53,362 bases of DNA from a virus, in IMG/VR virus record IMGVR_UViG_3300047160_009474, positions 1-53,362 of that record, one strand, 5' to 3'. The notes beneath the pieces were generated by a model. The model was not told the DNA's origin. It was given only the letters and a program-made list of their open reading frames with translations, and did not search any database. The position numbers and the translations under genes were made by a program. Of this stretch, positions 1,640-39,939 are shown piece by piece (positions within the stretch are counted from its first letter, which is position 1; each line of letters opens with the position of its first letter).

Positions 1640-1659
1640 GTTGACAGATTAGTGTCAAC
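1640..1659. promoter_or_regulatory. Late-type inverted-repeat motif, perfect palindrome GTTGACA-gattag-TGTCAAC (contains TTGACA)
   Basis: 1636-1665 shares ATCTGTTGACA-N9-CAACGTGCGA with the copy upstream of the capsid gene (27521-27550, minus strand). Confidence 0.6.
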
Positions 1660-2265
1660 GTGCGATTGGGGCTTCATGGTTTACGAGACCCAGGATAGTC
1701 GCGAAGTTCAGATTTCGGTCTACGCGCCGAAACTTCAGACTATCCAAAGCGTAACCGAGGGGCGTCCTAGTCCGACCACCCTCAAACCCTCTGGTGCTCG
1801 TAACGCCAGAGGACATTTTGCCCCGGGTCGAAGTAACAGGGTTATCTTATCAGCAATGGTAATTCGAACCCCCTGTGACAAACCTTATCCGGGGCTTTCC
1901 GCACAAACCCATGGCCACCCTTTGGCCTGGCACTCCCACATCCTCAAAGGCATTGCTGCCCTTGGAAAGCGGGGAGTCCACCGGCCTAGGTCCCCCGCAG
2001 AGAGGATTAACACCTCCGCAGGATATCGACCGAATCCGCCCGCCCTGGACTGTGTCTGCGGAAGAAGTAAGAATCCCGGCTAAGGCCCTGCAGCCTCGTC
2101 ACAGATTATAGCCCTGGATTCGACCGGAGCAGTCGGAAGCTCTCCGACCCCGGAACCAACCATTGGGGGCGGTGTGTGTACAAGAGAAAGGCTCCCGGAG
2201 AATGCAACAACCCCAGGAGCCTCAAGGAAGCCAAACGAACCAATGACGTTAACCACCCTACCTCC

Positions 2266-2285
2266 GTCGCCACTCCACTGTCAAC
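2266..2285 (-). promoter_or_regulatory. Late-type inverted-repeat motif copy (minus-strand reading GTTGACA-gtggag-TGGCGAC)
   Basis: Minus strand GGTGTTGACAGtggaGTGGCgACGG closely matches the copy at 33229-33248, GGTGTTGACAGaataGTGGCaACGG. Confidence 0.5.
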
Positions 2286-2707
2286 ACCCCCCGAGGGGGC
2301 TCCCCCCAAAAGCCCGGACGCTAAGACCACAGATCGAAAGCACCGACACTCCCAGGGGACCCCCCTCCCACCAAGAGCTGGAGTTACCACAAAACCTACC
2401 CCCTGTCCAGTAACCCGTTGTGCCGCCAAATCTCCACCACCACGTCCTGCTGACGAAACCGCGCCTCGTTAATCCGTGAACGCACCTCCACCGGAAAGAC
2501 CCGCTCGGTCGCCATCGCCCGACACTCCCGCTGCCATAACCTCCCAACCGCAACCACATCCCGAGGCCGAGGTGCCCGCAACCGCACCGTTCTACGTGGA
2601 ACCGTTGCCATATCCCTGACACTGCCACATCGTCAGGCGAATCGTCAAAATACCCGGTGGATCGTCGGGGTGATCATCGCATAGCCCCCGGCGGCAAAAG
2701 GGATCAT

Positions 2708-2732
2708 GGGGTGGGGGGCGGTGGGGGTGGGG
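2708..2732 (+). other. Canonical G-quadruplex-forming tract GGGGTGGGGGGCGGTGGGGGTGGGG
   Basis: Four or more G-runs of at least 4 separated by 1-4 nt, read directly. It lies 19-43 nt beyond the stop of the minus-strand gene 2751..3215. Confidence 0.5.
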
Positions 2733-2750
2733 CTCGACACAAAGCATGCT

Positions 2751-3215
2751 TCATCCTGGCTCACTGGCTCCATTGTCACTCGACTGGCAACCATTGCTTT
2801 CCTGCTTTGGTGTAACTGGCTCAATATCAAGTACTTGTCCATTGTCGAGTGGACTACTACCAATAGTCGATTCTAGATTAAGTGACGAAAGCCCGTGATA
2901 CGTGGGGGGTTTTTCGGGGTGATACTGGCCCGGCCCGGGGATTTGGGCAACGTATGTCCATGCTCGGAATATGCGATCATACGCTCGGGTTAACCCGTCG
3001 TAAGCCTTAAAGCCAGTCGCTTTCAATAGGGCTTCATACAATCTCTCTTTCAATACGCTTAGGCGGGCAAGCTCCACCGCAATGGCTTCCGCACTGATTA
3101 CGGGTACTACCGGGCCGAGCGTACCGGGGTAAAGCTTCGCCAGTTTGTTCTGTTTCCGCTTTTCGTGGCCCCGGGCGGACATCTCCCGGGCATTTTGCGG
3201 AGTAAATAGCGGCAT
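2751..3215 (-). CDS. Hypothetical protein with a basic N-terminus (possible DNA-binding or small-terminase-like role, unverified)
   Basis: Track ORF 2751..3326 trimmed to the internal Met (MPLFTPQNAREMSARGHEKRKQNK...). Its acidic or polar C-terminus looks disordered. Confidence 0.45.
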   Translation of the reverse strand: MPLFTPQNAREMSARGHEKRKQNKLAKLYPGTLGPVVPVISAEAIAVELARLSVLKERLYEALLKATGFKAYDGLTRAYDRIFRAWTYVAQIPGPGQYHPEKPPTYHGLSSLNLESTIGSSPLDNGQVLDIEPVTPKQESNGCQSSDNGASEPG

Positions 3216-3317
3216 GCTGGGAATAGTCGCCCCGGGCCGCAGTGGGGTCAAGCAGTCGACTGGCTTTTGTGTCCCCCCAGGATGGAAAAATAAACCACGG
3301 TTGAGCGGGGTACACTG

Positions 3318-3346
3318 TTGACACATTGTGCCACATTCGGTAACTT
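3318..3346 (+). promoter_or_regulatory. Sigma70-like early promoter TTGACA-17-TAACTT with operator ATTGTGCCACATT in the spacer
   Basis: -35 at 3318-3323, -10 at 3341-3346, operator at 3325-3337. It sits at the head of the plus-strand early block. Confidence 0.6.
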
Positions 3347-3388
3347 AGGAGGAGTCGGGGCAATGAAGCCCGGCGAAACAAATAGAAA

Positions 3389-3397
3389 GTGACGCAG
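3389..3397 (+). promoter_or_regulatory. GTGACGCAG box 3 nt upstream of the start codon
   Basis: aatagaaaGTGACGCAGtttATG. The same extended context, aatagaaagtgacgcag, occurs at 4895-4911. Confidence 0.5.
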
Positions 3398-3400
3398 TTT

Positions 3401-3733
3401 ATGACATCGATCGAATTATTCAACGTTGCCCGGCAATTGGGCTTTCAACTCCAAAGTGTACAGAAATGCCCCGACTGTGGGCAGGTCTCAACTAAGCTCA
3501 CAAATTCAGTAGTGAAGTACTGCAAACATTGCGAGCATAATGTTACCGGAGGAGTTTGTTATCACGGTCAAACCGATGCCACAATTGATATGCTCGACTG
3601 CCAGGATTGTGGCGTTGCCCGGGCTGATTTTATCCGGGGCGCACAAGATACCATCCGGGAACAAATCACCTTTTTAGAGGATGTGCCTTGTGTCGACTAT
3701 GACGACTACAAAGCCAAATTCGCCCGCCTTTAG
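3401..3733 (+). CDS. Small Cys-rich (zinc-ribbon-like) early protein
   Basis: ATG at 3401; the track start at 3389 is the GTG inside the box. CxxC pairs: CPDCG, CKHCEH, CQDCG. Confidence 0.7.
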   Translation: MTSIELFNVARQLGFQLQSVQKCPDCGQVSTKLTNSVVKYCKHCEHNVTGGVCYHGQTDATIDMLDCQDCGVARADFIRGAQDTIREQITFLEDVPCVDYDDYKAKFARL

Positions 3734-3742
3734 ATAGTGCCC

Positions 3743-3786
3743 CACGTTGAGCCCCGGGCCACGCCTAGGGGTTCACTGTGACGCAG
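3743..3786 (+). repeat. Early intergenic hairpin element copy 1 (13-bp stem) ending in TGTGACGCAG
   Basis: CACGTTGAGCCCC (3743-3755) pairs with GGGGTTCACTGTG (3768-3780). It lies just after the stop at 3733. Confidence 0.75.
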
Positions 3787-3873
3787 TATTTAAACAATCA
3801 ATCGCCCGGGGCGCATGCCATCCGGGGACTTTTGTCCCCACTGCGTCACCATGCTCCTGGGCAAATCATGAGA

Positions 3874-3882
3874 GTGACGCAG
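3874..3882 (+). promoter_or_regulatory. GTGACGCAG box 1 nt upstream of the start codon
   Basis: gagaGTGACGCAGcATG. An inverted copy ACTGCGTCAC lies at 3840-3849. Confidence 0.5.
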
Positions 3883-3883
3883 C

Positions 3884-4609
3884 ATGATCAATTCGATCGA
3901 AACTATCCCCAGTAGGGGAATAAAACCCACAGTACTAAAACATCATCCCCGGTTCACCATTCCTGAACTTGTCCCCCTCAACGTGGGGCTTGCTTGGGAA
4001 TTAACTGGCGGACTATCGGAGCCCAGTAAAATGCCTTGCCATGGCTTTTCTACCCCTGCCCGGCGTTGCAACGTGGGGACAAAATTGCGCGAAGTCCCCG
4101 GTTCAATTTGTGAAATCTGTTACGCATTTGAACGTGGCAGGTATGGCTTTGAAGTAGTCCAGTTAGCTTTGGAGCGTAGGTACGAAGCTTTAATGAATGA
4201 GCCCCGGTGGACTGAAGCAATGGTCTGGCTCATTAATCGCTTTGAAAAGTCGGGGTACTTCCGCTGGTTTGATTCCGGGGATGTTCCTGACTTTGCCGCA
4301 TTGGAGAAGATCATTGAAGTAGTCCGCCAAACCCCCAGGATTAAACACTGGCTCCCTACCAAGGAATACGGGCTGATATCGCAATGGGTCAAAGCCCATG
4401 GGGCTTTTCCTAAAAACCTGACTGTACGCTTGTCCGCCTACATGGTGAACGGTGCCCCCCCTCGCGAGCTCGCCAAGCGTTTAGGGGTTTTAACATCCGG
4501 GGTTAAAAAACGGGGCTTTTCCTGCCCGGCATCATTGCAAGGCAATCAATGCGGGGAATGCCGCACCTGCTGGCAAAAACGGGGCAACGTTAACTATCAC
4601 AAGCATTAA
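3884..4609 (+). CDS. Cys-rich early protein, 241 aa (resembles, from memory, the phage 'gene product 88' type family; unverified)
   Basis: Long ORF with an ATG start. Motifs CEICYAFERGRYG, FRWFDSGD and a C-terminal CGECRTCW. Confidence 0.7.
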   Translation: MINSIETIPSRGIKPTVLKHHPRFTIPELVPLNVGLAWELTGGLSEPSKMPCHGFSTPARRCNVGTKLREVPGSICEICYAFERGRYGFEVVQLALERRYEALMNEPRWTEAMVWLINRFEKSGYFRWFDSGDVPDFAALEKIIEVVRQTPRIKHWLPTKEYGLISQWVKAHGAFPKNLTVRLSAYMVNGAPPRELAKRLGVLTSGVKKRGFSCPASLQGNQCGECRTCWQKRGNVNYHKH

Positions 4610-4614
4610 TTCCT

Positions 4615-4821
4615 ATGGAAGCCAATCAAAAGATCGTCAAATTGCGCCTTGTACGTAAAAGCGAAACAGCGGAATGGCTTGTGAAAGTTTGGGTGTGGGT
4701 AGGTGGCAAGTGGCTTTATTCGGAACTGGCAACGTATTACACGGATGATAAAGGTGACGCAGTAGCCACATTGTCAACCATGGCCCGGCAGTACTCCGCA
4801 CAAGGCTATTCACTTCTTTAA
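4615..4821 (+). CDS. Hypothetical small protein (68 aa)
   Basis: ATG lies 6 nt after the preceding stop. The sequence is non-repetitive and contains an internal in-frame GTGACGCAG (4754-4762). Confidence 0.6.
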   Translation: MEANQKIVKLRLVRKSETAEWLVKVWVWVGGKWLYSELATYYTDDKGDAVATLSTMARQYSAQGYSLL

Positions 4822-4902
4822 GCGCAATGATCACCCCATGCCCCCGGGCTGCAATCCCGTGGGGTATTGGGTGGCAATTACGCCACAAAAAACCAATAGA
4901 AA

Positions 4903-4911
4903 GTGACGCAG
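4903..4911 (+). promoter_or_regulatory. GTGACGCAG box 1 nt upstream of the start codon
   Basis: aatagaaaGTGACGCAGcATG. Confidence 0.5.
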
Positions 4912-4912
4912 C

Positions 4913-5227
4913 ATGAAGATTAGAAAACTCGCAACACCCCTCGGAAAGTACCGAGGCAAAAAGTACTATCGTTTCACCGTGTACTTTGAACAGTCTGGCA
5001 TAGGCTGGAATATCTCACGACCCATGGCGATCATTGCCAGTAGCGCGATCGAGGCATGCAACGCCATTCGGAACGAATTCGCCCATACGCTGGAGTACCC
5101 GGCGGAGTTTATTTGTTGCGGCCCGGCAGGGGGCAGGGTTGATCGCTTTGTCGGGTGGGAGTCAATGATCTGGGCTAAAATGGTTTCGACAATTCGCGGG
5201 CAGGAACAAATCCCACTACCCCTCTAA
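4913..5227 (+). CDS. Hypothetical protein (104 aa)
   Basis: ATG-initiated ORF directly behind the box. Confidence 0.65.
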   Translation: MKIRKLATPLGKYRGKKYYRFTVYFEQSGIGWNISRPMAIIASSAIEACNAIRNEFAHTLEYPAEFICCGPAGGRVDRFVGWESMIWAKMVSTIRGQEQIPLPL

Positions 5228-5231
5228 ACTT

Positions 5232-5606
5232 ATGACATCCAAACATAAAGAGCTCTTTTTTGTGAGCTCAACCGATGGTTGCCTACTGAGGCAAGATACT
5301 TGTCAGGTCGTACGCAAAAACTATTGCGGCCACCATATGCACATTGCGGACAATGAGGATTTTAAGGCTACACTCCGGGCCGGGCCTTACACTTTCCCGG
5401 GCTGCTATCCGCTCTTCTTTATCACCCGGGATAGTGGCGCAATTTGCTTCCCATGTGCTCAGAGGGAAGCCCGGCGAATAATGTCGAGCATTCGATCGGA
5501 TTGTAATGACGGGTGGCGCATAGAGGCATGCGACGTAAACTATGAGGATCCTCAACTCATGTGTGACCATTGCTCAAAGCCGATCCAATCAGCCTACGGA
5601 GATTAG
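5232..5606 (+). CDS. Cys-rich hypothetical protein (124 aa)
   Basis: ATG lies 5 nt after the preceding stop. Motifs FPGCYPLFFITRDSGAICFPCA and LMCDHCSKPI. Confidence 0.7.
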   Translation: MTSKHKELFFVSSTDGCLLRQDTCQVVRKNYCGHHMHIADNEDFKATLRAGPYTFPGCYPLFFITRDSGAICFPCAQREARRIMSSIRSDCNDGWRIEACDVNYEDPQLMCDHCSKPIQSAYGD

Positions 5607-5676
5607 CTAACACATGGGGCCAGGACAAACATTCTGGCCCCTTTCCGCATAGAACCAAAAACCAAAAAAGAGGAAA

Positions 5677-5685
5677 GTGACGCGC
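5677..5685 (+). promoter_or_regulatory. Variant box GTGACGCGC 4 nt upstream of a start codon
   Basis: aggaaaGTGACGCGCtgatATG. Confidence 0.4.
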
Positions 5686-5689
5686 TGAT

Positions 5690-5860
5690 ATGGAAACAGT
5701 ACCAAGCACACAGACGGGGCCGATCGAGAGTTCGATCGAGAGCTCGAACCCGATCGAGAGGCCCGATGTCTTTGCCATCTACCAGCTCCTCCGCAGGCAC
5801 AAGATTGAGGCTAAATATGTGGTCGAGTTTGCCCGCATTTTGCTCAACTCCACAGCGTAA
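5690..5860 (+). CDS. Small ORF (56 aa), below the track threshold
   Basis: METVPSTQTGPIESSIESSNPIERPDVFAIYQLLRRHKIEAKYVVEFARILLNSTA. It is preceded by the box variant and carries CGATCGAGAG three times. Confidence 0.45.
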   Translation: METVPSTQTGPIESSIESSNPIERPDVFAIYQLLRRHKIEAKYVVEFARILLNSTA

Positions 5861-5871
5861 TCTGATTGATT

Positions 5872-5915
5872 CACATTGAGCCCCGGGCTAAGGTCTAGGG
5901 GTTCACTGTGACCCA
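5872..5915 (+). repeat. Early intergenic hairpin element copy 2
   Basis: CACATTGAGCCCC (5872-5884) pairs with GGGGTTCACTGTG (5898-5910). It lies just after the stop at 5860. Confidence 0.75.
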
Positions 5916-5953
5916 AATAGGCCACATTAACATTAACCATCAAAACTAAGAAA

Positions 5954-5962
5954 GTGACGCAG
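5954..5962 (+). promoter_or_regulatory. GTGACGCAG box 3 nt upstream of the start codon
   Basis: aagaaaGTGACGCAGaatATG. Confidence 0.5.
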
Positions 5963-5965
5963 AAT

Positions 5966-6352
5966 ATGAGTGAACAAAAACCGAAACCCGATCAAGAGCT
6001 CGACCACAGACGATCGAGAGCTAACCCAATGAGCATTCTCGACTACATCAAGGCAGTGGATGAGGCCTTGGAACATCGCTACTGTGTCAGCATTGCGGAG
6101 GCTGGCATTGATGCGGCTGAGTTACTCACCGCCCAGGCGGAAGGCTGGAGCCCAGAGCAGTATGTCGAGTGGTTTGGAGAGAAGCACGACCTGACCGAGA
6201 AGAGCCAGTGGGACCTAGCTAAGGCCGTTGCGGAGTTAGCCCCCCAGTTCTGTTCCATGTGCGAGGGTCCCTTGATGCTGTTAGGAAGCTTGGGAAACCT
6301 CGCGCACTACCGGTGCCGTAATTGTGGCTTAGACTTTTCCCGTGGAGTGTAG
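5966..6352 (+). CDS. Hypothetical protein with a C-terminal zinc-ribbon-like motif (128 aa)
   Basis: ATG at 5966; the track start at 5954 is the GTG of the box. C-terminal CSMCEG...YRCRNCG. Confidence 0.7.
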   Translation: MSEQKPKPDQELDHRRSRANPMSILDYIKAVDEALEHRYCVSIAEAGIDAAELLTAQAEGWSPEQYVEWFGEKHDLTEKSQWDLAKAVAELAPQFCSMCEGPLMLLGSLGNLAHYRCRNCGLDFSRGV

Positions 6353-6360
6353 CCTACTCT

Positions 6361-6407
6361 CACGTTGAGCCCTTCTCAGGCTGGGGGGAGGGTTCACCGT
6401 GGCGCAG
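6361..6407 (+). repeat. Early intergenic hairpin element copy 3 (compensatory changes keep the stem)
   Basis: CACGTTGAGCCCT (6361-6373) pairs with AGGGTTCACCGTG (6389-6401). It lies just after the stop at 6352. Confidence 0.75.
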
Positions 6408-6512
6408 GCATTTTAACGCAGGTGACACATCATCATGCGGATGAAAAACAGAATAACCACAAACAACATCGATCGAGGCATCAAAACTGCCTACGGGGCG
6501 ATCGGGGGAAAG

Positions 6513-6521
6513 GTGACGCAG
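6513..6521 (+). promoter_or_regulatory. GTGACGCAG box overlapping a candidate GTG start
   Basis: ggaaagGTGACGCAGTGgca. Confidence 0.4.
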
Positions 6522-6703
6522 TGGCACAAGAGACAAAATACAAAGTATGGATTCATGTGACTAAAACCGATGCCTTTGATCCTGAGGATTCGACCGATAT
6601 CGCGGCAATGGATGAAGTAGCCTCGTTTCAAAGCGAAGACGAGGCCTTTCGATTTGTCGAGCGGCTAAAGTCGTTTCTGCCGATCATCGACCAGTCGGAA
6701 TAA
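6521..6703 (+). CDS. Small acidic hypothetical protein (~60 aa; start uncertain)
   Basis: In frame with track ORF 6365..6703, whose TTG start would run through the hairpin repeat. The GTG at 6521 abuts the box. The C-terminal part, VWIHVTKTDAFDPEDSTDIAAMDEV..., looks protein-like. Confidence 0.4.
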   Translation: MAQETKYKVWIHVTKTDAFDPEDSTDIAAMDEVASFQSEDEAFRFVERLKSFLPIIDQSE

Positions 6704-6717
6704 AGCAAAGATTCCAG

Positions 6718-6747
6718 TTGCAGGTTGTGCCACAACGAGCCTACTTT
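6718..6747 (+). promoter_or_regulatory. Sigma70-like promoter TTGCAG-18-TACTTT with perfect palindromic operator GTTGTGCCACAAC
   Basis: Operator at 6724-6736 abuts the -35. It lies upstream of the coupled gene set 6882-7805. Confidence 0.5.
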
Positions 6748-6881
6748 AGGACGTTTGTGACACAGGGACACATAGAGATAGACTTTTGTCCTGCTCCCAG
6801 GGAGCCGTGGGTTGCGCCCCGGTCTTTCAGGCTTTGCGGCCTGACTGCGTCACCCCCTGGGGGTAGGGCATTTTCGCATTT

Positions 6882-7805: not shown

Positions 7806-7845
7806 CCGTCCGTAACCAACAACACAAAAAAAGAAAGGTCTGAAA

Positions 7846-8064: not shown

Positions 8065-8088
8065 CCTCCTAACCGAGCTAACCCTATT

Positions 8089-10741: not shown

Positions 10742-10917
10742 GTGACCCTAAGTTCGGATTGTACTAAGGTGTAATAGGATCACTACGGAACAGGGATGCA
10801 ATAACCCTTTACACATAATCACTTGGTGTTACAGTCCTGTCGCGGGTATCCCTGTTGGAGAATCGACCATGAATATACCAAAAAACTATAGGTCCATGCC
10901 TGATGAACAGCTCAAGC

Positions 10918-17282: not shown

Positions 17283-17479
17283 CGGTGATGATCATAGCCG
17301 CCCGTTCAGTGGTTGACCAGCACACGGACATCTACTTCCTGGACCCCAAAGACATCGTCTCGATTCAGTCGACCCTCGACAAGATCGTCGTCTTTTTGTT
17401 TAACGGAAAGGAACTGCACACCCAAAAACCCATCCGATTTGTTGAGAAATATGGGGTGGACACGATTGTGCCACATTAG
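17279..17479 (+). CDS. Small hypothetical protein (66 aa), weakly LytTR-like
   Basis: ATGA-coupled ATG at 17279. DIYFLDPKDIVSIQSTLDKIVVFLFNGKELHTQKPI. Confidence 0.45.
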   Translation: MTVMIIAARSVVDQHTDIYFLDPKDIVSIQSTLDKIVVFLFNGKELHTQKPIRFVEKYGVDTIVPH

Positions 17480-17485
17480 TATAGT
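17457..17485 (+). promoter_or_regulatory. Sigma70-like promoter TGGACA-17-TATAGT with operator ATTGTGCCACATT in the spacer
   Basis: Operator at 17465-17477 is identical to 3325-3337. It overlaps the stop of 17279..17479 and lies upstream of 17547. Confidence 0.55.
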
Positions 17486-25965: not shown

Positions 25966-27333
25966 TCAGCTGCAGCTGACACAGTCGAAGTCAGCAACGC
26001 ATCGGGTAAAGATGAGCAGCCGTCCGTAATCAGGGAAAATCGGCTTGGCCGCATGCCGGTATTCGGCAACGTGCCGTCCCAGTTTGTGGGTCGGGTCCTG
26101 GGTGCCAGCCGGGCAATCCGGGAAGCCGATCAATGCATCGTTGCCGGTGATGAAATTCCATTCCCCCATATAATTTTGGGCCATCCATTTCATGCCCGGC
26201 GCAGAGTTGACGGGCCGCAGAACCTCTTCGGTGTAGACCCATGGGTTGAGCACAATGCAGCCTTCGTAGGTGGCGATGTTGGGGTTCTGCCAGTAGGGGT
26301 TCACGATGGATACCTGCCCCTTCGTCGCATTGACCTGAGCGGTCGACATGTTCCAGGTCGGCACCCGGTAGTAACCGGTCGCCGTGGCGACAGTCGGTGG
26401 CAGTCCGGGAGCCAGTGACAGGGCCTGGCCGGAAGTCAGCCATGCCCACCGTGGCGGAAACATCGTGATGATGTGCCGAAAGTTCTTGATGACCCGCGAG
26501 GCACCCATGCGGGCAATCACCGGGTTGGCATCGCCAAAGGCTTCAAAGGCCGAGCGGTAATCACGGCGAAGCTCGCTGTTGTTAAGCAGGATTTTATTCG
26601 AAGCTTCCTGACCAATGAGCAGCGAATAGATAGGACCCTCAGGACCCAGCGTCATCCAACCGTTGCTGTTGGGATCGAATGCGCCGGTCTCGTTTAAGTT
26701 GAGTGCCGTCAGGTCCAGAAAGTCCTGCGAGAGATTGCAGGAAGCCTGGCCGATGGCAGTGCTGCCCGCCGTCACACCGTTCAAGTCAACAATGGAGGGT
26801 GGCGGCTGGGCTGCGGCCTGGTTGAAGATGCCCGGCACGAAGGTGAAAGGGCTGGAGGTCGAATTAATACAAGCCGCCTTGCTTGAATAATTCATGTAAA
26901 TGTTGGCGAGCCGATTGATGATGGATTTGGCATTTCTTTTCTCCAATGCCATAAAATACTTTTCCCAAAAATCGGTCGAGTTCCAATGCAGCGTGAGGTC
27001 GTCCTGACAGATGAGCGGGCCGACCAGGCCGAACTCTTCGGGCTTGTACACGACCTCCAGGTGACCCACATAGGTCTGGTTGTAGGTGACGGCACAGCTG
27101 CCCACAAAGGTTCCGCCGGAAGTGGTTTGGATGGGGGGCCAGGTTTCTTCATCGGTCGCCGGTTCGCTTCGACCAATCGTGAAGGCCGAGCGGTTCAGAC
27201 CGGCTCCCACCGGCCATTCAGCGCGGGGGACCAGGTTCAACCAGGGGTCTTGCCAGGAGGCACGAACGTAGAGTTGCGGGCCGAGATCTTCGACGCGCAT
27301 TCTCAGGACATCGAACGGATTTAAACAGGCCAT
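25966..27333 (-). CDS. Probable major capsid protein (455 aa)
   Basis: Follows the scaffold gene in the canonical portal-scaffold-capsid order. It has its own late motif upstream and a non-repetitive globular sequence. No homology search was run. Confidence 0.6.
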   Translation of the reverse strand: MACLNPFDVLRMRVEDLGPQLYVRASWQDPWLNLVPRAEWPVGAGLNRSAFTIGRSEPATDEETWPPIQTTSGGTFVGSCAVTYNQTYVGHLEVVYKPEEFGLVGPLICQDDLTLHWNSTDFWEKYFMALEKRNAKSIINRLANIYMNYSSKAACINSTSSPFTFVPGIFNQAAAQPPPSIVDLNGVTAGSTAIGQASCNLSQDFLDLTALNLNETGAFDPNSNGWMTLGPEGPIYSLLIGQEASNKILLNNSELRRDYRSAFEAFGDANPVIARMGASRVIKNFRHIITMFPPRWAWLTSGQALSLAPGLPPTVATATGYYRVPTWNMSTAQVNATKGQVSIVNPYWQNPNIATYEGCIVLNPWVYTEEVLRPVNSAPGMKWMAQNYMGEWNFITGNDALIGFPDCPAGTQDPTHKLGRHVAEYRHAAKPIFPDYGRLLIFTRCVADFDCVSCS

Positions 27334-27526: not shown

Positions 27527-27546
27527 GTTGCCAAAAACGTGTCAAC
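27527..27546 (-). promoter_or_regulatory. Late-type inverted-repeat motif upstream of the capsid gene (minus reading GTTGACA-cgtttt-TGGCAAC)
   Basis: Forward GTTGCCAaaaacgTGTCAAC. The extended match to 1636-1665 comprises ATCTGTTGACA and CAACGTGCGA at identical spacing. Confidence 0.6.
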
Positions 27547-27550
27547 AGAT

Positions 27551-27700
27551 TTATTTCCGAATCGTAGTGCGGTAGGGCTCTGTGCGCCTGAGCAAGTCCT
27601 TGCCTCGCTGTCGCTCAAAGGTCATCCCGATGCTAAAGCCAATAGCGAACACATATCCCAGTATCAGCAGGGCCAGCAGGATGGCCCCTGCGATTATCAT
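27551..27700 (-). CDS. Small single-pass membrane protein (49 aa)
   Basis: Its ATG overlaps the scaffold stop (ATGA). MIIAGAILLALLILGYVFAIGFSIGM... Confidence 0.4.
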   Translation of the reverse strand: MIIAGAILLALLILGYVFAIGFSIGMTFERQRGKDLLRRTEPYRTTIRK

Positions 27701-28869
27701 TGCTCGTCCAACCTCGGCAGGTTCGCAACCCACGGGGCCATGGCCTGCCGGGGGCTGGAGCCGGGAGCAATCAGGACTTTCCTGGGCTCGTTGCCGTTGG
27801 TGGTGGTCTCAGTGTTCTGGACTCGCGCATTCGGTTGAGCCGCACTGAGACTCTTGATTTGCTCCTGCGCTTTGGCTAACTGGTCCCGCAAAGCAAGGTT
27901 CTCCTCCAGCACTGGCTCCGAGCCGGTCCCCGCCACAATCAGCCGCAGGATGCTATCCGCGCTGCCCTTGCCACTGAAAAGGTTCCTCACCACCTGGACC
28001 CGCTGGTCGACTGCCTTGTTCCACTCCTCCTGCCCTTCCCGTTTCTGGAAGGCCGGGTGCCCATTCTTGGCATTCTGTGCGGCCAAGAGCACTGAATCCA
28101 CAGCCTTGTTGAGCATGACACCCTGGTCGGCAACCCGTTTGGCTTCAGTCTCCTGCATCTGGCGGAAGTTCTCCTGGCTCTTCTTGATTTCGCCCTGCCG
28201 CTCATTCTCCAGTATCGCCAGGCTATTAACCACCCCACCGATTCGGGCCGCAGCCATGGAGGTAAGGTCCGCCGTGAATTCGTCCAGCTGCGTGTCTTTG
28301 TATTCACCCTCGGGCATCTCCAGAATCTTGGCGATTTGGTCAGCCCTTTCCTTCCCGACAATGGAGCGAGCCACATCAATCTGCGCCTTCCTCTTGTCCC
28401 CGAAGTAAGCCTGGAACCTCGGGTGCTGGGTGACATCGACCACCTTCAGACGCTCGCTCAGAGCATCCCGCTCCTCCTGCAATGATTTGTACTCTGAGCT
28501 CTCGGTCGCCGGTGTGGCCGTGGTCTTCTTGGCATCATCGCGCTCCGACTCAAGCGTCTTTATCCGGGTCTCATATTCAGCGTATTTACTATCCCGGACC
28601 TTCTTAAACTCTTTCCACTGGTCAGCCGAGCGGGGCCACTTGTCCTCGGTGGTCACCGGCTCCCGGGCGGGCTCTTTGGCCGGTTCCTTCTGCGGCTCCT
28701 TGGGTGGCTCTTTGTCGGGCTCCTTCGGTGGCTCAGGCTCAACCAGTTTGTCTTTATTGGGAATATTCGCGGGCGTTCCGATTTGCGGGTTGGGCAACTC
28801 TGCGGAGAGTGCGCCCATGAAATCTTTCAACGCCTGCGCCGGTGGTGCTAGTGTCGGTGCATCAGGCAT
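27697..28869 (-). CDS. Probable scaffolding protein (~390 aa)
   Basis: Charged, coiled-coil-rich, with an EPxKEP repeat tract, lying immediately upstream of the capsid gene. Start is ATG 28869 or GTG 28875. Confidence 0.6.
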   Translation of the reverse strand: MPDAPTLAPPAQALKDFMGALSAELPNPQIGTPANIPNKDKLVEPEPPKEPDKEPPKEPQKEPAKEPAREPVTTEDKWPRSADQWKEFKKVRDSKYAEYETRIKTLESERDDAKKTTATPATESSEYKSLQEERDALSERLKVVDVTQHPRFQAYFGDKRKAQIDVARSIVGKERADQIAKILEMPEGEYKDTQLDEFTADLTSMAAARIGGVVNSLAILENERQGEIKKSQENFRQMQETEAKRVADQGVMLNKAVDSVLLAAQNAKNGHPAFQKREGQEEWNKAVDQRVQVVRNLFSGKGSADSILRLIVAGTGSEPVLEENLALRDQLAKAQEQIKSLSAAQPNARVQNTETTTNGNEPRKVLIAPGSSPRQAMAPWVANLPRLDEQ

Positions 28870-28886: not shown

Positions 28887-28906
28887 GTTGTCAGTAACCT
28901 GTCAAC
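28887..28906 (-). promoter_or_regulatory. Late-type inverted-repeat motif upstream of the scaffold gene (minus reading GTTGACA-ggttac-TGACAAC)
   Basis: Forward GTTGTCAgtaaccTGTCAAC, 17 nt from the scaffold ATG. Confidence 0.6.
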
Positions 28907-32062: not shown

Positions 32063-33045
32063 AGTTCCCTCAGTGGCATCCGGGTATACCAGTCATGCTC
32101 CGGGGTGCAGCGAACGGGAAACTCTCCGCCGTTCAGAATGGCCTGTCTCAGTGTCCCGATGTCGTCAAAGCCATTGCCGAAATACTGCTCAAAACGGGTG
32201 CTCCCCCGGGCCTGGTTGAGCGCACTGTGCGACTTGTCGTTCTGTCCATTGCCGCCGATGACAGGCCGGTCCCCTTCCCAATGCCAGTCCTCCTTTCGGA
32301 AGGCAGGCTCCAGGTGGTGGTGCTCCTCGCTTTCCAAGGTCAGCATGTTCCGGTTGTAACGGAAGCCATAGCGGTTGGTGTTGCCCAGGGTGATGCCGGT
32401 GCAAACGTCCTCAAACCCCAGACCATCACACAGGGCCTCACCCCACCCGTTGATGTCCAGGAACGCCTGCACCGGCGCAATCAAAGAGCAGCCATACATC
32501 CAGTCGCCGCCAACCGAAACCAGGTCGGATGCGGCCTGGTCCCAGCGACCGTCCTTGTCCTGGAGCTTAAACGATTCGGCTCGACCATTGGTGACCACTA
32601 AGTCCCTGACCTTCAGGTAGGCACCCAGGCCGATGTAACCCTTCTGAATGGCATCGGTCACCGAGTTGACCCAGCCGGGCATGAGGACCGACAGGTCATC
32701 CACGTAAGCAATCCATCCATCGGGGGCATAACACAGCCCAGTGTTGCGAGCGTTGGCCATGGCAAACCAATCCTCCTTGGTGAGCCGGTGCTTGCCCTGC
32801 CAGACACACGGTTTTGGCTCGACTAACTTGTAGGGAAACCGGGGCGGGAAGAATTCAACCGGCCTCTCCTTGGCGTAGAAGTCAACCAGCACCACGTTGG
32901 TCGCAAAGGGAAGCGACTCTCCATCATCGAGCAGCCTCAATAACGAATCGAGGAACCACTCAATCTTGCAGTTCCTCCGGGCCGTGCAGTAGCAAATGGT
33001 GAGGTTGATGGCGTGGCCCTTCAGGTCTGCCGCATCACGGTTCAT
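32059..33045 (-). CDS. GT-A fold glycosyltransferase-like protein (328 aa)
   Basis: Its ATG overlaps the RHH stop (ATGA). ANARNTGLCYAPDGWIAYVDDLS fits an NxARN...DxD pattern. Confidence 0.5.
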   Translation of the reverse strand: MNRDAADLKGHAINLTICYCTARRNCKIEWFLDSLLRLLDDGESLPFATNVVLVDFYAKERPVEFFPPRFPYKLVEPKPCVWQGKHRLTKEDWFAMANARNTGLCYAPDGWIAYVDDLSVLMPGWVNSVTDAIQKGYIGLGAYLKVRDLVVTNGRAESFKLQDKDGRWDQAASDLVSVGGDWMYGCSLIAPVQAFLDINGWGEALCDGLGFEDVCTGITLGNTNRYGFRYNRNMLTLESEEHHHLEPAFRKEDWHWEGDRPVIGGNGQNDKSHSALNQARGSTRFEQYFGNGFDDIGTLRQAILNGGEFPVRCTPEHDWYTRMPLREL

Positions 33046-33209
33046 GCCTTGGGCTGTTGTGCGAAGAGCTCCTCCAGCTTCTCCCGGCACTTGCCGAGCA
33101 TGAAGTCCACGATGAAGGCCACGCTCACATGGTTCTTCTGTGCCATCTCAGTCAGTGATTCGTGAGCGTTCTTGCTCACCCGGACAGTTTTAGTGTCATC
33201 CAGTAGCAT
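33042..33209 (-). CDS. Ribbon-helix-helix small regulator (55 aa) heading the enzyme cassette
   Basis: MLLDDTKTVRVSKNAHESLTEMAQKNHVSVAFIVDFMLGKC.... The late motif ends 19 nt upstream of its ATG. Confidence 0.5.
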   Translation of the reverse strand: MLLDDTKTVRVSKNAHESLTEMAQKNHVSVAFIVDFMLGKCREKLEELFAQQPKA

Positions 33210-33228: not shown

Positions 33229-33248
33229 GTTGCCACTATTCTGTCAAC
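33229..33248 (-). promoter_or_regulatory. Late-type inverted-repeat motif upstream of the RHH/glycosyltransferase cassette (minus reading GTTGACA-gaatag-TGGCAAC)
   Basis: Forward GTTGCCActattcTGTCAAC, lying between the stop at 33253 and the ATG at 33209. Confidence 0.6.
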
Positions 33249-37520: not shown

Positions 37521-37524
37521 AAGT

Positions 37525-38121
37525 TCAGGTGGTGCATTGCTTCCAGCACCTGGGCACGGCTGCGAATTGTTTGGCCATTTCCTCGTTCACATCGGGACAC
37601 TGGGTGTCCAACGGGAACCACACGGCCACTCGGGTCCAGCAGCCGCAGATGCCGCAGGCCCGCAGGTCATGGTCGTAAGGAGTGGATTTGCTGCCGGTGC
37701 CCGAAAGGACATTCACCAGTTCCGAGCACAGACCGGCGCAGGGTTTGGAAAAGAAGACTGCCTGGGGACAGCTCGCGCAGATTGCGGCCCGCTCGTTTGC
37801 GGTGGCCTGGGCCACTAACTGCGAGCCGGTGAGCTTGTGCCGGGCAAAGGTCATCGTGCCCCGCACGATTTCGCCCATGCTCCAATGGCTCTTGCGCCGG
37901 GTGCCGGGCGGAACATTCTCGCAGTCATCGGGGTAGTTGGCGCAGATGTCCCGCTCCACCTCCTGCTCGAAGTCCAATCCCACCGGGACACCGTTGGCCT
38001 TGCGCTCCTGGTAGGCGAAGTGCATCAACTGCTCGAAGGTGGTGCCCCTGACTTCCTGGCGGGTCAGCGGGTCACGCCAGAGAAAAGAACCGCCATAGGG
38101 GATTTGCGAGATGATCCTCAT
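37525..38121 (-). CDS. Cys-rich hypothetical protein between terminase and portal (198 aa)
   Basis: ATGA-coupled to terL. CASCPQ...CAGLC...CGICGC cluster. Confidence 0.55.
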   Translation of the reverse strand: MRIISQIPYGGSFLWRDPLTRQEVRGTTFEQLMHFAYQERKANGVPVGLDFEQEVERDICANYPDDCENVPPGTRRKSHWSMGEIVRGTMTFARHKLTGSQLVAQATANERAAICASCPQAVFFSKPCAGLCSELVNVLSGTGSKSTPYDHDLRACGICGCWTRVAVWFPLDTQCPDVNEEMAKQFAAVPRCWKQCTT

Positions 38122-39875
38122 GCCTCGATTTCCTCCGGGACATAGCCCACCTGGTCTGACTCCTCGTACACGCTGTTAACCTCCTGGGCGTAGTTGAAGA
38201 ATTCCTCACTGCGGGCGACCGTCTCGCCGATGGGTTGGATGCGGAAACCCCGCTGGCGGGCAACCTCGATGATCATCACAAAGCAGTCGGACAAGTCGGG
38301 CGACTCACCGAACTGCTCCTTGTAATCCCGCTTGTTCATCATCACGATCCGCTGCTTCGAATCGTCAAACTCGATGGTGCAAAGCTCTCGGGCCGTCAGC
38401 TGGTCCAACCCGCGCAACTGCTCATGGTTCATCGCATCGCGAGAGCGGAAGTACATCTCAGTGCGCTTATTCCAGTAAACCTCCTTTGCGGGTCGGATGT
38501 CCTCGGGCGAGCAGGAGTCTTCACTGGCCGCTCCCGCGAATTCGATGCGGATGATCTTCGGGCTCCAGATGCGTTGGACGATGTCGCACAGACCCCCGCC
38601 CTCGCCGGTGGCATCGATGCCCAGGTTTTGGGGTTCGCAGGAGTATTCGACTCCGTTGTATTGAAAGGATTCGCATTGGCGTTTTAACTGTTCCGCAAGT
38701 TGGAAGTGGACCGGGTTTTTCGATGAGGCGTCGATGGTGAGGATGACGGGCGGCATGCATTCGATGCCGGTGTTCCCGTTAGAGATTTCTCCCATTTTGG
38801 CAAATCGAAGAGCGGGCCGGTCGCCCCCGCCGAAAGCTGGGTCGAAAGCTCCAATAATTCGGAAATTTCTTCCGGTGAATACGTGGCGTTCGAAACCTTT
38901 TGCATTGATGATTCCTACTTCGCTAAAGACAGTTTTAGTGAGCCCGATGGGTGGCCAGAACCCCCGTTCGTTCGACCAATAGGAGGGGCTGTTCTCCCCG
39001 CCTGCCAGTGCCCGGCGGCTCTCCACCCGGCGCAGGGAAGGCAAGTGCCTGGAAACAGTTTTACCATTCAGAATGTTGGGCGACTTCTCGGCATCGAACC
39101 GCAGCACAATGCCGGTCCTGCCGTTCTGTTGGGGCTTGCTCTCCCACTCCTCGGTCTCGACGCTGACACTTGCCCACCCGTCCTTGGGCTCGCAGAACTT
39201 CCCCATCTCATCCAGCCGCGAGCGGGGGTTGCCGATGACCACCATTAGGAATTCTTCGCAGGCCGCAGACAGGTTGAACCCCGCTTCGAAGATGGCATGC
39301 GGCACGGCTGTTGCCTCATCTATGACAACCATCTGGCGGCGGGTGTGGTGGCCTTTGATGTTGTCGGCCACCTTGAAGACTGAGCCCTCGCGCACGGCGA
39401 TGCCGATGATGGCATGTTTATCGTCGCCCTTGTTGGACTGCCAGATCATGCGCGAATCCACAAAGTTGCCGTACTGCCGAGGACCCAAAGCCGAGAAGAG
39501 CCGCTGGATCTCCGACCAGCCCCGCCGCCTCAGAGCCTTGGCGGTGGTGGAGCAAAAGATGACGCTGGATTCCTCGGGGCAACAGAGCCACCAAATCCCC
39601 GCAAACCCAGCGACATTAAAGGTTTTTGCGCTCCCCGCGCAGCCCGCCAGGCCGACCCACTCATTGAAGCAGCAGGCATCGATGATGTTGTTAGTCCAAG
39701 GGTGATACTCGAAATGCTTGGGCAGGAGCAGATTGGCAACCGCCCGGAAAAGGTCAGGCCGTGGCGGCATTCCCCGCATCGGGCCATTGCGATGACTGAA
39801 CGCCCAGCGGTCGTAGGAGAGCTGATCCAGGCCAGGTTTTAAGCCATAGGTTCTGACCGTAGCCGTGGTAGGCAT
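38118..39875 (-). CDS. terL: Terminase large subunit (585 aa)
   Basis: Walker A-like GCAGSAKT, Walker B MVVIDEAT, then VIGNP and a C-terminal nuclease-sized half. First gene of the morphogenesis operon. Confidence 0.8.
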   Translation of the reverse strand: MPTTATVRTYGLKPGLDQLSYDRWAFSHRNGPMRGMPPRPDLFRAVANLLLPKHFEYHPWTNNIIDACCFNEWVGLAGCAGSAKTFNVAGFAGIWWLCCPEESSVIFCSTTAKALRRRGWSEIQRLFSALGPRQYGNFVDSRMIWQSNKGDDKHAIIGIAVREGSVFKVADNIKGHHTRRQMVVIDEATAVPHAIFEAGFNLSAACEEFLMVVIGNPRSRLDEMGKFCEPKDGWASVSVETEEWESKPQQNGRTGIVLRFDAEKSPNILNGKTVSRHLPSLRRVESRRALAGGENSPSYWSNERGFWPPIGLTKTVFSEVGIINAKGFERHVFTGRNFRIIGAFDPAFGGGDRPALRFAKMGEISNGNTGIECMPPVILTIDASSKNPVHFQLAEQLKRQCESFQYNGVEYSCEPQNLGIDATGEGGGLCDIVQRIWSPKIIRIEFAGAASEDSCSPEDIRPAKEVYWNKRTEMYFRSRDAMNHEQLRGLDQLTARELCTIEFDDSKQRIVMMNKRDYKEQFGESPDLSDCFVMIIEVARQRGFRIQPIGETVARSEEFFNYAQEVNSVYEESDQVGYVPEEIEA

Positions 39876-39919
39876 TTGTGTTGACCCTACATCATCTGGG
39901 GGTTATCAGTAAAGCGTAC

Positions 39920-39939
39920 GTTGGCAGAAAAGTGGCAAC
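39920..39939. promoter_or_regulatory. Late-type inverted-repeat motif in the divergent terL / tail-operon control region (GTTGGCA-gaaaag-TGGCAAC)
   Basis: The minus-strand reading TTGCCA-N9-CAACG lies 44 nt upstream of the terL ATG. The near-symmetric site could serve both directions. Confidence 0.5.

What the first reader, a model, noticed from the sequence alone, without database searches (positions are those of the whole stretch)
1640..39939. A 20-bp inverted repeat GTTGNCA-N6-TGNCAAC marks every late transcription unit
Six copies, given as forward-strand strings:
- 1640-1659 GTTGACAgattagTGTCAAC
- 2266-2285 GTCGCCActccacTGTCAAC
- 27527-27546 GTTGCCAaaaacgTGTCAAC
- 28887-28906 GTTGTCAgtaaccTGTCAAC
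- 33229-33248 GTTGCCActattcTGTCAAC
- 39920-39939 GTTGGCAgaaaagTGGCAAC

Four of the six are oriented so that a perfect TTGACA lies distal and CAACG proximal to a minus-strand gene start (capsid, scaffold, RHH/glycosyltransferase cassette, and the ncRNA block). The sixth sits between the divergent terL and tail operons.

No sigma70-like -10 follows at 17 nt; the hexamers there are TCATGT, TCGAGT, GACAGA and similar. The element therefore looks like a -35 box fused to a dimeric activator or operator site, or a promoter for an alternative or phage-modified holoenzyme.

The copies at 1636-1665 and 27521-27550 share 21 of 30 positions in two exact blocks.
Basis: seen in the sequence. Interest (0 to 1): 0.65.

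Follow-up and report, generated by a model that had tools for sequence, protein, structure and literature searches.

The report
Late promoter-operator motif of a soil phage
An uncultured temperate soil phage carries the same 20-22 bp near-palindrome at the head of each of its five structural-gene units: one half is an ordinary bacterial -35 promoter box, the other half makes it a two-fold binding site, most likely for a small phage repressor. This is a tidy but familiar kind of gene switch.

Summary
GTTGNCA-N6-TGNCAAC occurs 5 times perfectly (0.01 expected) and 8 times with at most one mismatch (0.2 expected). A weight matrix separates seven strong sites: the six reported plus 2772-2791. All seven lie in the 13% of the window that is intergenic. 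Five head the five inferred structural-gene units; three sit in a 2-kb poorly coding block.

The element is directional: a/t-rich, then GTTGACAG-nnn-AGTGGCAAC-G. The left half is a sigma-70-type -35 box. Relatives keep TTGACA at the homologous capsid promoter, followed 17 nt later by TAnnnn. In the window, ATG codons, including the scaffold-like and RHH-like gene starts, lie 37-40 nt from the motif start, where a leaderless transcript would begin. Early promoters of the same phage have normal -10 boxes; the late ones do not.

The right half is specific to this phage. It gives two self-symmetric TGNCA boxes 11 bp apart over the -35 box and spacer, a geometry like CopG/Arc and ArtA operators. 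One site lies 19 nt upstream of an orphan RHH-like gene.

My best reading is a promoter-operator for a phage repressor that blocks sigma region 4. Activator and altered-holoenzyme readings remain open. No RNA or binding data exist.

The parts
1640..1659 (+). Site 1, GTTGACAGATTAGTGTCAAC. This is the only perfect palindrome. An ATG lies at motif position 37 (coordinate 1676). The opposite strand reads TTGACA-17-TATTTT, and the palindrome followed by a T-run looks like a terminator for leftward transcripts.
   Evidence: (29.4 bits)
2266..2285 (-). Site 2, read on the minus strand as GTTGACAGTGGAGTGGCGAC. It points leftward into the poorly coding block.
   Evidence: (24.8 bits)
2772..2791 (-). 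On the minus strand it reads GTTGCCAGTCGAGTGACAAT. An ATG lies at motif position 38 but opens only a 16-codon ORF.
   Evidence: (22.7 bits)
27527..27546 (-). Site 4, on the minus strand GTTGACACGTTTTTGGCAAC. It heads a leader of about 190 nt for the putative capsid gene (25966-27333). It is at the position homologous to TTGACA-17-TATGGT in L023.
28887..28906 (-). Site 5, on the minus strand GTTGACAGGTTACTGACAAC. The ATG of the scaffold-like gene (28869) is at motif position 38.
33229..33248 (-). Site 6, the best match to the consensus: on the minus strand GTTGACAGAATAGTGGCAAC. The ATG of the RHH-like gene (33209) is at motif position 40.
   Evidence: (30.2 bits)
39920..39939 (.). Site 7, GTTGGCAGAAAAGTGGCAAC, between the divergent terL unit (ATG 39875, minus strand) and the tail-fibre unit (plus strand). 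Each half is a 5-of-6 -35 box for one direction (TTGGCA and TTGCCA).
39310..39329 (.). Marginal site inside terL coding sequence (one mismatch, 13.6 bits). It may be chance.
33042..33209 (-). Gene for a 55-aa protein with a ribbon-helix-helix-like pattern (TVRVS, then helix, HVS, helix). It is the first gene of the unit headed by site 6 and the candidate binder.
   Evidence: Pfam HicB, E 0.009; no homologue; many RHH folds among non-significant Foldseek hits
27697..28869 (-). Scaffold-like gene. Its N-terminus aligns with homologues in L023, L024, L002 and L026.
25966..27333 (-). Putative major capsid gene. It has 244 homologues, many on contigs of about 53 kb. Its identity is inferred from position only.
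   Evidence: structure model too poor to confirm
38118..39875 (-). Large terminase gene.
   Evidence: phrog_2, E 6.5e-17
40173..41624 (+). Collagen-repeat tail-fibre-like gene, the first clear gene of the rightward structural unit.
3318..3346 (+). Contrast: an early promoter, TTGACA-17-TAACTT, with a TGTGCCACA palindrome in its spacer. It shows that this phage does use a normal -10 box elsewhere.
17457..17485 (+). Contrast: a second promoter of the early class, TGGACA-17-TATAGT, with the same ATTGTGCCACATT spacer.

Best explanation
Each site is a composite promoter-operator.

Shown or well supported:
- The left half (G)TTGACA is the -35 hexamer of a sigma-70-type host promoter.
- Transcription would start about 30 nt downstream of the hexamer. 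For at least the scaffold-like and RHH-like genes that point is the start codon itself, so the mRNAs would be leaderless.

Inferred:
- The right half TG(G/N)CAAC lies in the spacer at about -24 to -18 and mirrors the -35 box. Each promoter therefore carries two self-symmetric TGNCA boxes one helical turn (11 bp) apart.
- A phage-encoded dimeric or dimer-of-dimers DNA-binding protein binds this site. It competes with sigma region 4 for the -35 box and so represses all seven promoters together. At the 39920 site it would repress both divergent promoters at once.
- The most likely binder is the orphan 55-aa RHH-like protein encoded directly behind the best site (33229). It would autoregulate and act as a governor of late transcription.

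The sign of regulation and the identity of the protein are inferred, not shown.
For: Promoter half:
- Relatives with 60-82% capsid identity keep TTGACA at the homologous place upstream of the capsid gene. It is followed at 17 nt by TATGGT, TAAGCC, TATCCG or TATACC.
- An ATG lies at motif position 37-40 at four of seven sites. P is 6e-4 uncorrected and 0.02 after a conservative correction.
- Two of these ATGs are the scaffold-like and RHH-like gene starts.
- Relatives show canonical leaderless promoters: L024 TTGACT-17-TAAAGA-6-ATG, L019 TATTAT-7-GTG, L001 CATAAG-6-ATG and L009 TAGGAT-6-GTG.
- The sequence upstream of the sites is A/T-rich.

Operator half:
- The second arm is as conserved as the -35 box in all seven sites.
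- It is absent from every relative's homologous promoter.
- No IMG/VR contig carries the extended consensus form (GTTGACAGNNNAGTGGCAAC) more than once.
- The central N positions do not pair, so the palindrome is not selected as a hairpin.
- A dyad centred near -27.5 overlaps the sigma region 4 contact. From general knowledge of bacterial promoters, that is where repressors sit, not activators.

Binder:
- An RHH-like gene starts 19 nt after the best site.
- Relatives carry a leaderless small regulator at the same syntenic place. It is RHH-like in L002 and L019 and looks like an XRE-type HTH in L001 and L015 (read from the translation). Each has its own inverted repeat over its -35 box, present once in the DNA held.

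Precedents:
- CopG and Arc operators are two 4-bp boxes (the self-palindrome TGCA, or TAGA) 5 bp apart that overlap the promoter. Arc represses two divergent promoters (PMC2724298).
- ArtA is an RHH master regulator. Its operators contain TGACA and overlap the -35 boxes of six promoters, blocking sigma region 4 (PMC2777438).
Against: - No transcription start, expression timing or binding data exist. No RNA run holds this phage.
- The late promoters lack a -10 box. At most the A at its second position is kept. Early promoters of the same phage have TAACTT and TATAGT. This suggests the late promoters are weak on their own and need a positive factor rather than a repressor.
- The RHH assignment is weak. 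Pfam HicB gives E 0.009, below its cut-off. The PDB sequence and profile searches are non-significant. The single-sequence AlphaFold model shows two helices and no strand. All Foldseek E-values exceed 2.
- A repressor whose own promoter is its best site is a poor silencer for lysogeny.
- Two pairs of sites share flanking bases (1640 with 27527; 28887 with 33229). Part of the conservation may therefore be recent copying rather than selection.
- Two of the four ATGs at position 37-40 open ORFs that are probably not genes.
Confidence: 0.45

Rival explanations
1. Activator-dependent late promoters. The palindrome binds a phage dimer that recruits or remodels the host sigma-70 holoenzyme at promoters that cannot open unaided, because they lack a -10 box. 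The RHH-like or another early protein would be a late activator with positive autoregulation.
For: None of the seven sites has a TAnnnT box at 16-19 nt. Early promoters in the same genome do, and relatives' late promoters keep at least TA. The motif is restricted to structural-gene units, as expected of a late switch.
Against: From general knowledge, known activator-dependent phage late promoters (P2 Ogr, Mu C/Mor, P1 Lpa, lambda cII-dependent) have a usable -10 box and a poor or missing -35 box. Here the arrangement is the reverse: five of seven sites have a perfect TTGACA. A symmetric protein on -36 to -17 would occupy the very bases that sigma region 4 reads. RHH proteins are overwhelmingly repressors (PMC2724298, PMC2777438).
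Confidence: 0.27
2. The whole 22-bp element is a promoter for a different holoenzyme: host sigma-54, a phage-encoded sigma or sigma-appropriating factor, or a phage RNA polymerase. TTGACA would then not be read as a -35 box.
For: TGaCAg-N5-TgGCA matches the sigma-54 consensus TGGCAC-N5-TTGCA at 8 of 11 positions with the right spacing. Site 39920 on the plus strand has the full GG-N10-GC. A conserved G lies where a sigma-54 start would fall (position 29). The element is conserved as one continuous block and there is no -10 box.
Against: The -24 G, which is nearly invariant in sigma-54 promoters, is A in five of seven sites and C in another. No sigma factor, enhancer-binding protein or polymerase was found in any Pfam or PHROG scan of the window's proteins, although many are orphans. 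Relatives have plain TTGACA-17-TAnnnn at the same place. The start codons of the scaffold-like and RHH-like genes fit sigma-70 geometry.
Confidence: 0.12
3. Same promoter-operator, different binder and role. The prophage immunity repressor (the RHH-like 10918-11262 or a neighbour) binds all late promoters to silence them in the lysogen, as P1 C1 or mycobacteriophage L5 gp71 act at many dispersed sites.
For: The phage has an integrase. Next to it lies a divergent pair of RHH-like genes, read from the translations (weak CopG-like PHROG hit for 11432-11614). Late promoters with a consensus -35 box would need silencing. L5-type repressors bind more than 20 dispersed, orientation-biased sites (PMC9283540). 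The operator classes of this phage share a TGCCA/GTGGCA core.
Against: No copy of the late motif lies in the immunity region 10700-11450; the best score there is below 9 bits. That region has its own inverted repeat, GTGCCACtctaGTTGCAC. Early promoters carry a different palindrome, TGTGCCACA.
Confidence: 0.1
4. No protein reads the second half. The sites would be copies of one promoter cassette spread by recombination, or serve as hairpins (terminators or cruciforms), or as plasmid-type centromere sites.
For: Pairs of sites share flanks beyond the motif. Site 1640 forms a perfect 8-bp hairpin followed by a T-run.
Against: Between the pairs the flanks are unrelated while the 20-mer is kept. Hairpins are weak (0 to -7 kcal/mol) with a central mismatch at six of seven sites. 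No ParA or ParB was detected in the proteins scanned. The sites are tied to gene starts and are directional, which centromeres are not.
Confidence: 0.06

Closest known systems
ArtA regulon of Staphylococcus plasmid pSK41 (RHH master repressor; PMC2777438)
   Same: One small regulator controls several promoters of one mobile element. Its operators contain TGACA and overlap the -35 boxes, so repression is by blocking sigma region 4. Its own promoter is among the targets.
   Different: ArtA's cognate operator is ACATGACATG and is bound mostly by a single dimer. Here there are two inverted TGNCA boxes 11 bp apart. The element is a phage and the targets are structural-gene units. No sequence similarity was found, and binding is untested.
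CopG (pMV158) and Arc (phage P22) operators (PMC2724298)
   Same: Two short boxes lie in inverted arrangement overlapping the promoter. In CopG the box is the self-palindrome TGCA, over the -35 box. A dimer sits on each box. The regulator gene is first in the regulated operon. Arc represses two divergent overlapping promoters, like site 39920.
   Different: Those boxes are 4 bp long and 5 bp apart, giving a 13-bp element. Here they are 5 bp long and 6 bp apart, inside a 20-bp element. CopG and Arc each control a single locus; here there are seven.
Mycobacteriophage L5 / cluster A operator-stoperator system (PMC9283540)
   Same: One phage repressor site occurs at many dispersed places, including structural-gene regions, and its orientation correlates with the direction of transcription.
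   Different: L5 sites are asymmetric 13-mers bound by a monomer. They number more than 20 and lie inside transcription units to stop elongation. Here the sites are near-palindromes found only at the 5' ends of units.
Activator-dependent phage late promoters (P2 Ogr, Mu C, P1 Lpa; from general knowledge)
   Same: A shared dyad-symmetric element marks the late transcription units of a temperate phage.
   Different: Those promoters have a -10 box and lack a -35 box, and the dyad lies upstream of, or replaces, the -35 box. Here the -35 box is at consensus and the -10 box is missing.
Sigma-54 (-24/-12) promoters
   Same: Two TGNCA-like blocks with the same 11-bp register. Site 39920 read on the plus strand fits GG-N10-GC.
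   Different: The -24 G is replaced in six of seven sites. No enhancer-binding protein is in evidence.

Membership tests
sigma-70-type promoter | -35 hexamer close to TTGACA | tested here: met
   Perfect TTGACA in five of seven sites and 5 of 6 matches in the other two. It is conserved at the homologous capsid promoter in L002, L003, L004, L023, L024 and L027 (TTGACT in L026).
sigma-70-type promoter | -10 hexamer TAnnnT 16-18 nt downstream | tested here: not met
   The hexamers are GATTGG, GACAGA, TCATGT, TCGAGT, GTAGGG and the like. The consensus scan finds no hit in the gene direction.
sigma-70-type promoter | Transcription start about 30 nt after the -35 hexamer | tested here: inconclusive
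   No RNA data exist. Indirectly, an ATG lies at motif position 37-40 at four sites (P 6e-4), and relatives have leaderless promoters.
RHH (Arc/CopG/ArtA-type) operator | Two or more short, internally symmetric boxes about one helical turn apart on one DNA face | tested here: met
   TGNCA at positions 3-7 and 14-18, centres 11 bp apart, in all seven sites. Compare TGCA-N5-TGCA in CopG.
RHH (Arc/CopG/ArtA-type) operator | Operator overlaps the regulated promoter, usually the -35 box | tested here: met
   The left box is the -35 hexamer itself. This holds only if TTGACA is the -35 box.
RHH (Arc/CopG/ArtA-type) operator | A ribbon-helix-helix protein encoded in the regulated unit | tested here: inconclusive
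   The 55-aa product of 33042-33209 has the strand-helix-helix pattern. However, Pfam HicB gives E 0.009, below its cut-off. There is no homologue among 5.8 billion clusters or 1.84 billion representatives. The AlphaFold monomer model lacks the strand. Foldseek hits include many RHH proteins, but all have E above 2.
RHH (Arc/CopG/ArtA-type) operator | Specific binding of the protein to the site | not testable with these tools
   Needs gel-shift or footprint assays.
sigma-54 promoter | GG at -25/-24 and GC at -13/-12 (GG-N10-GC) | tested here: not met
   Only site 39920 on the plus strand has GG. Five sites have GA and one has GC at that place. The -12 GC is also missing at sites 1640, 2772 and 28887.
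L5-type stoperators | Asymmetric site, many copies inside transcription units, one orientation relative to transcription | tested here: not met
   The sites are near-palindromic and number seven. All lie at the 5' ends of units or in a non-coding block. Orientation bias is present.
Intrinsic terminator or structural hairpin | Arms that pair throughout; compensatory change keeps pairing | tested here: not met
   The central N positions mismatch at six of seven sites. Folding energies are 0 to -7 kcal/mol except at site 1640 (-9.3).
MerR-type promoter | 19-20 bp spacer with the dyad inside the spacer and good -35 and -10 boxes | tested here: not met
   The dyad includes the whole -35 box. No -10 box is found at 19-20 nt.
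Activator-dependent phage late promoter (Ogr/C/Lpa type) | Usable -10 box, weak or absent -35 box, activator dyad at or upstream of -35 | tested here: not met
   The arrangement is the opposite: consensus -35 box and no -10 box. The family's features are taken from general knowledge.

The most novel reading that the evidence does not exclude
The seven elements are a new promoter class. The host polymerase holds the TTGACA half through sigma region 4, while a phage protein on the mirrored half, or a phage sigma-like factor reading the whole 22-mer, supplies the function of the missing -10 box. This would give leaderless late mRNAs in an uncultured soil phage lineage whose host does not use Shine-Dalgarno sites.
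Probability: 0.12. Interest if true: 0.75.

Novelty: new member of a known kind. Interest (0 to 1): 0.4.

Why it matters
If correct, this orphan phage genome, where almost no protein has a named relative, gets a readable wiring diagram: five structural-gene units and three non-coding-block promoters under one switch.

Together with the relatives' promoters, it shows that this widespread family of ~53-kb soil phage genomes probably uses leaderless mRNAs and -35-driven promoters.

It also suggests how a regulon can grow. In relatives, the syntenic small regulator has an inverted repeat only at its own promoter. Here the operator appears at seven promoters.

The 20-mer and the 55-aa protein would be a compact, orthogonal repressor-operator pair that is easy to test.

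It does not open a new principle of gene control unless the -10-less promoters prove to need a new kind of factor.

Tried and rejected
- **Named phages.** Megablast of 8 kb against 50,697 phage records gave no match.
- **Host.** The genome-contig scans gave only a 53.6-kb contig binned in a Patescibacteria MAG and a 2.8-kb contig in a Verrucomicrobiia MAG. The host remains unknown. DnaN, response-regulator and GerE genes in relatives indicate a bacterial host.
- **Expression data.** No RNA run holds the phage.
- **Near-identical variants.** Contigs from four soil DNA runs carry the identical sequence at low depth and show no variation at the sites.
- **The motif elsewhere.** The extended pattern in IMG/VR gave 12 single hits in unrelated contigs, with no second copy in the stretch fetched around each hit. 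One one-mismatch copy in L011, at a promoter with a TACTCT -10 box, is within chance expectation for the DNA scanned.
- **Homologues of the RHH-like protein.** None were found in either large protein search. PDB sequence and profile searches were non-significant.
- **Capsid identity.** The structure model for the putative capsid protein was too poor to use (pLDDT 48.6).
- **ORF 1676-2083.** It follows site 1640 but has no homologue, so it is probably not a gene.
- **Known RNA families.** Rfam found nothing credible in the window or in the 1300-3450 block.
- **A shared -10-like box.** Aligning all sites gave only weakly conserved G residues at positions 21, 29 and 32.
- **Readings rejected.** Hairpin, MerR-type, class II activator (centre -41.5) and sigma-54, for the reasons in the membership table.

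Full report
**Observation.** The pattern GTTGNCA-N6-TGNCAAC is far above chance. There are 5 perfect copies against 0.01 expected, and 8 copies with at most one mismatch against 0.2 expected. A weight matrix built from the oriented sites separates seven strong sites (22.7-30.2 bits) from everything else (13.9 bits or less). Sites 39310 (inside terL) and 10242 (upstream of the integrase) are marginal. All seven strong sites fall in the 13% of the window that I scored as intergenic.

**Context.** The window is an uncultured soil phage. The identical sequence is present at low depth in several soil metagenomes and matches no named phage. The putative capsid protein has 244 homologues, many on contigs of 53-57 kb, so the window is probably a whole genome.

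Recognisable genes:
- an integrase at 8988-10199, an ERF recombinase and a RecE/YqaJ-like exonuclease
- terL at 38118-39875
- a glycosyltransferase, methyltransferase and GH130 cassette at 29899-32062
- a collagen-repeat tail-fibre-like protein at 40173-41624

Most other proteins are orphans. Genes rarely have a Shine-Dalgarno sequence. From the gene layout there are five structural-gene units: terL to 33253, the RHH-like gene plus glyco cassette, the scaffold-like gene, the capsid gene through the 1464-aa gene, and the rightward tail-fibre unit. Each starts with a site. The other three sites lie in a 2-kb block (1347-3388) with no convincing genes.

**Anatomy.** When each site is oriented towards its downstream gene, the consensus is directional: a/t-rich, then t-GTTGACAG-nnn-AGTGGCAAC-G. 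The symmetric part is positions 1-7 and 14-20. G8, A12, G13 and G21 are conserved but not symmetric. The variable middle bases of the two arms do not pair, so the hairpins are weak except at site 1640. This is a double-stranded DNA signal. Seen another way, the element is two internally symmetric TGNCA boxes whose centres are 11 bp apart.

**The left half is a -35 box.**
- Relatives with 60-82% capsid identity have TTGACA at the homologous position upstream of the capsid gene. It is followed 17 nt later by TATGGT, TAAGCC, TATCCG or TATACC. After that come the same 5' hairpin and conserved leader blocks as in the window.
- In the window an ATG lies at motif position 37, 38, 38 and 40 at four sites. 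P is 6e-4 uncorrected and 0.02 after correcting for the choice of offset.
- Two of these ATGs are the starts of the scaffold-like gene, whose N-terminus aligns with homologues, and of the RHH-like gene.
- A start codon at that distance is what a leaderless mRNA from a TTGACA-17-hexamer-6/7 promoter would give.
- Relatives have such promoters with good -10 boxes: L024 TTGACT-17-TAAAGA-6-ATG, L019 TATTAT-7-GTG, L001 CATAAG-6-ATG and L009 TAGGAT-6-GTG.
- Two of the four window ATGs open ORFs that are probably not genes, so the statistic should be read with care.

**The -10 box is indeed missing.** Aligning the sites leaves at most an A at the second position of the expected hexamer. Sigma-70-like matches are not enriched anywhere in the late region. 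The same genome has early promoters with proper -10 boxes: 3318 on the plus strand (TTGACA-17-TAACTT) and 17457 on the plus strand (TGGACA-17-TATAGT). Both have a different palindrome, TGTGCCACA, in the spacer. This contrast is the strongest argument that the late promoters need help. It is why I do not dismiss the activator reading.

**The right half is specific to this phage.** None of the relatives' promoters has it. In IMG/VR the extended pattern occurs only as single, unrelated hits. The best site (33229) lies 19 nt upstream of a 55-aa protein whose sequence has the strand-helix-helix pattern of RHH proteins. Support for that fold is weak:
- Pfam HicB scores E 0.009, below its cut-off.
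- No homologue exists in either large protein search.
- The AlphaFold monomer model has two helices and no strand.
- The Foldseek list is rich in RHH proteins (AtaR, AmrZ, CdbA, Arc, CopG, MazE, PutA), but every E-value is above 2.

In relatives the same syntenic spot holds a leaderless small regulator. It is RHH-like in L002 and L019, and looks like an XRE-type HTH in L001 and L015 (read from the translation). Each has its own inverted repeat over its -35 box, present only once in the DNA held. This points to an ancestral autoregulated regulator whose operator, in this phage, has spread to all late promoters.

**Mechanism.** A dyad covering about -36 to -17 includes the bases read by sigma region 4, which is the position of a repressor. 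Two precedents match closely.
- CopG and Arc bind two short boxes in inverted arrangement overlapping the promoter. In CopG the box is the self-palindrome TGCA, over the -35 box. Arc shuts two divergent promoters at once (PMC2724298).
- ArtA of pSK41 is an RHH master regulator. Its operators contain TGACA and overlap the -35 boxes of six promoters, blocking sigma region 4 (PMC2777438).

I therefore read the element as a promoter-operator bound by a phage dimer-of-dimers, probably gp33042-33209, which damps all late units together. My confidence is about 0.75 for the promoter-operator reading, about 0.5 that the protein is a repressor, and about 0.35 for the identity of the protein.

**Rivals.**
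- An activator (0.27) is favoured by the missing -10 box. It is disfavoured by the perfect -35 box and the position of the dyad.
- A different holoenzyme (0.12). The match to the sigma-54 consensus is 8 of 11 with correct spacing, but the -24 G is replaced at six of seven sites, and no sigma factor or polymerase was found.
- The immunity repressor as binder (0.10). The motif is absent from the immunity region.
- No protein at all (0.06).

**Novelty.** This is a new member of a known kind. The interest lies in the clean regulon, the leaderless architecture of a large uncultured phage family, and the -10-less promoters.

Noticed in passing
window 3389-6853: GTGACGCAG occurs 9 times (0.4 expected), only in the early region. 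At 3874, 4903 and 5954 it sits 1-3 nt before the ATG of an early plus-strand gene (gaaaGTGACGCAGnATG); at 3389 it is followed after 3 nt by an in-frame ATG. That is where a ribosome-binding site would be. It could be a translational operator, a processing site or an unusual ribosome-binding signal.
   Followed up: partly
window 3327, 6726, 6756, 17467: A 9-bp palindrome, TGTG(C/A)CACA, lies in the spacer of sigma-70-like promoters that have proper -10 boxes (3318+ and 17457+ share ATTGTGCCACATT). It appears to be a separate early or middle operator class. It shares the TGCCA/GTGGCA core with the late motif.
   Followed up: partly
window 11412-11429: The inverted repeat GTGCCACtctaGTTGCAC ends 2 nt before the ATG (11432) of a small RHH-like gene. 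The region is divergent between two RHH-like genes next to the integrase and is probably the immunity switch.
   Followed up: no
window 1347-3388: A 2-kb block without convincing genes. It carries three late-motif sites (one pointing right, two pointing left, so transcription would converge), a C-rich stretch at 2280-2600 and a terminator-like hairpin at 2892-2906. Bases 1660-2250 fold better than shuffles on both strands (z -3.0 and -3.5). No Rfam family matches.
   Followed up: partly
window 27334-27526; L002, L004, L023 upstream of the capsid gene: The capsid gene has a leader of about 190 nt. Some blocks are conserved across relatives: a 5' hairpin GGTTGAAGGCTGCAACC (with L023), GCGCCGACTTC (L004; close variant in L023) and GCAGTGTG (L002, L004, L023). 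An A/U-rich, SD-less stretch precedes the ATG. It is possibly a structured regulatory leader.
   Followed up: no
L001 11465-11520; L002 4198-4241; L019 about 1340-1380; L009 about 1770-1805: In relatives a small regulator gene follows the 433-aa protein homologue (and, in L001, L002 and L019, a small basic protein). It is leaderless (a -10 box 6-8 nt before ATG or GTG). In L001, L002 and L019 it has its own inverted repeat over the -35 box: AAAGTG-N7-CACTTT in L001, TTGACACCCCAC...GTGGGGCGTGTCAA in L002 and CTTGC-N7-GCAAG in L019.
   Followed up: partly
window 1640-1659, minus strand: Read leftward, this site is the best sigma-70 match in the window (TTGACA-17-TATTTT). As RNA it is a perfect hairpin followed by AGAUUAUUUU, so it may also end the leftward transcripts from sites 2266 and 2772.
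   Followed up: no
L011 1876-1895: A one-mismatch copy of the motif (GTTGACAAAACCTTGCCAAT) lies in a relative's divergent promoter that has a normal -10 box (TACTCT) and an ATG 8 nt later. A single copy is within chance for the DNA scanned.
   Followed up: partly
L027 (JAGWWT010000007.1); L028: A 53.6-kb contig of this phage family is filed in a Patescibacteria MAG, probably through mis-binning. A 2.8-kb fragment sits in a Verrucomicrobiia MAG. These are the only hints about the host.
   Followed up: no
window 33556-34857 and homologues (A1): A well-conserved 430-aa protein lies between the portal and the small regulator (45-50% identity in L002 and L001). It has no Pfam or PHROG match, so it is a family-specific head-module protein of unknown role.
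   Followed up: no
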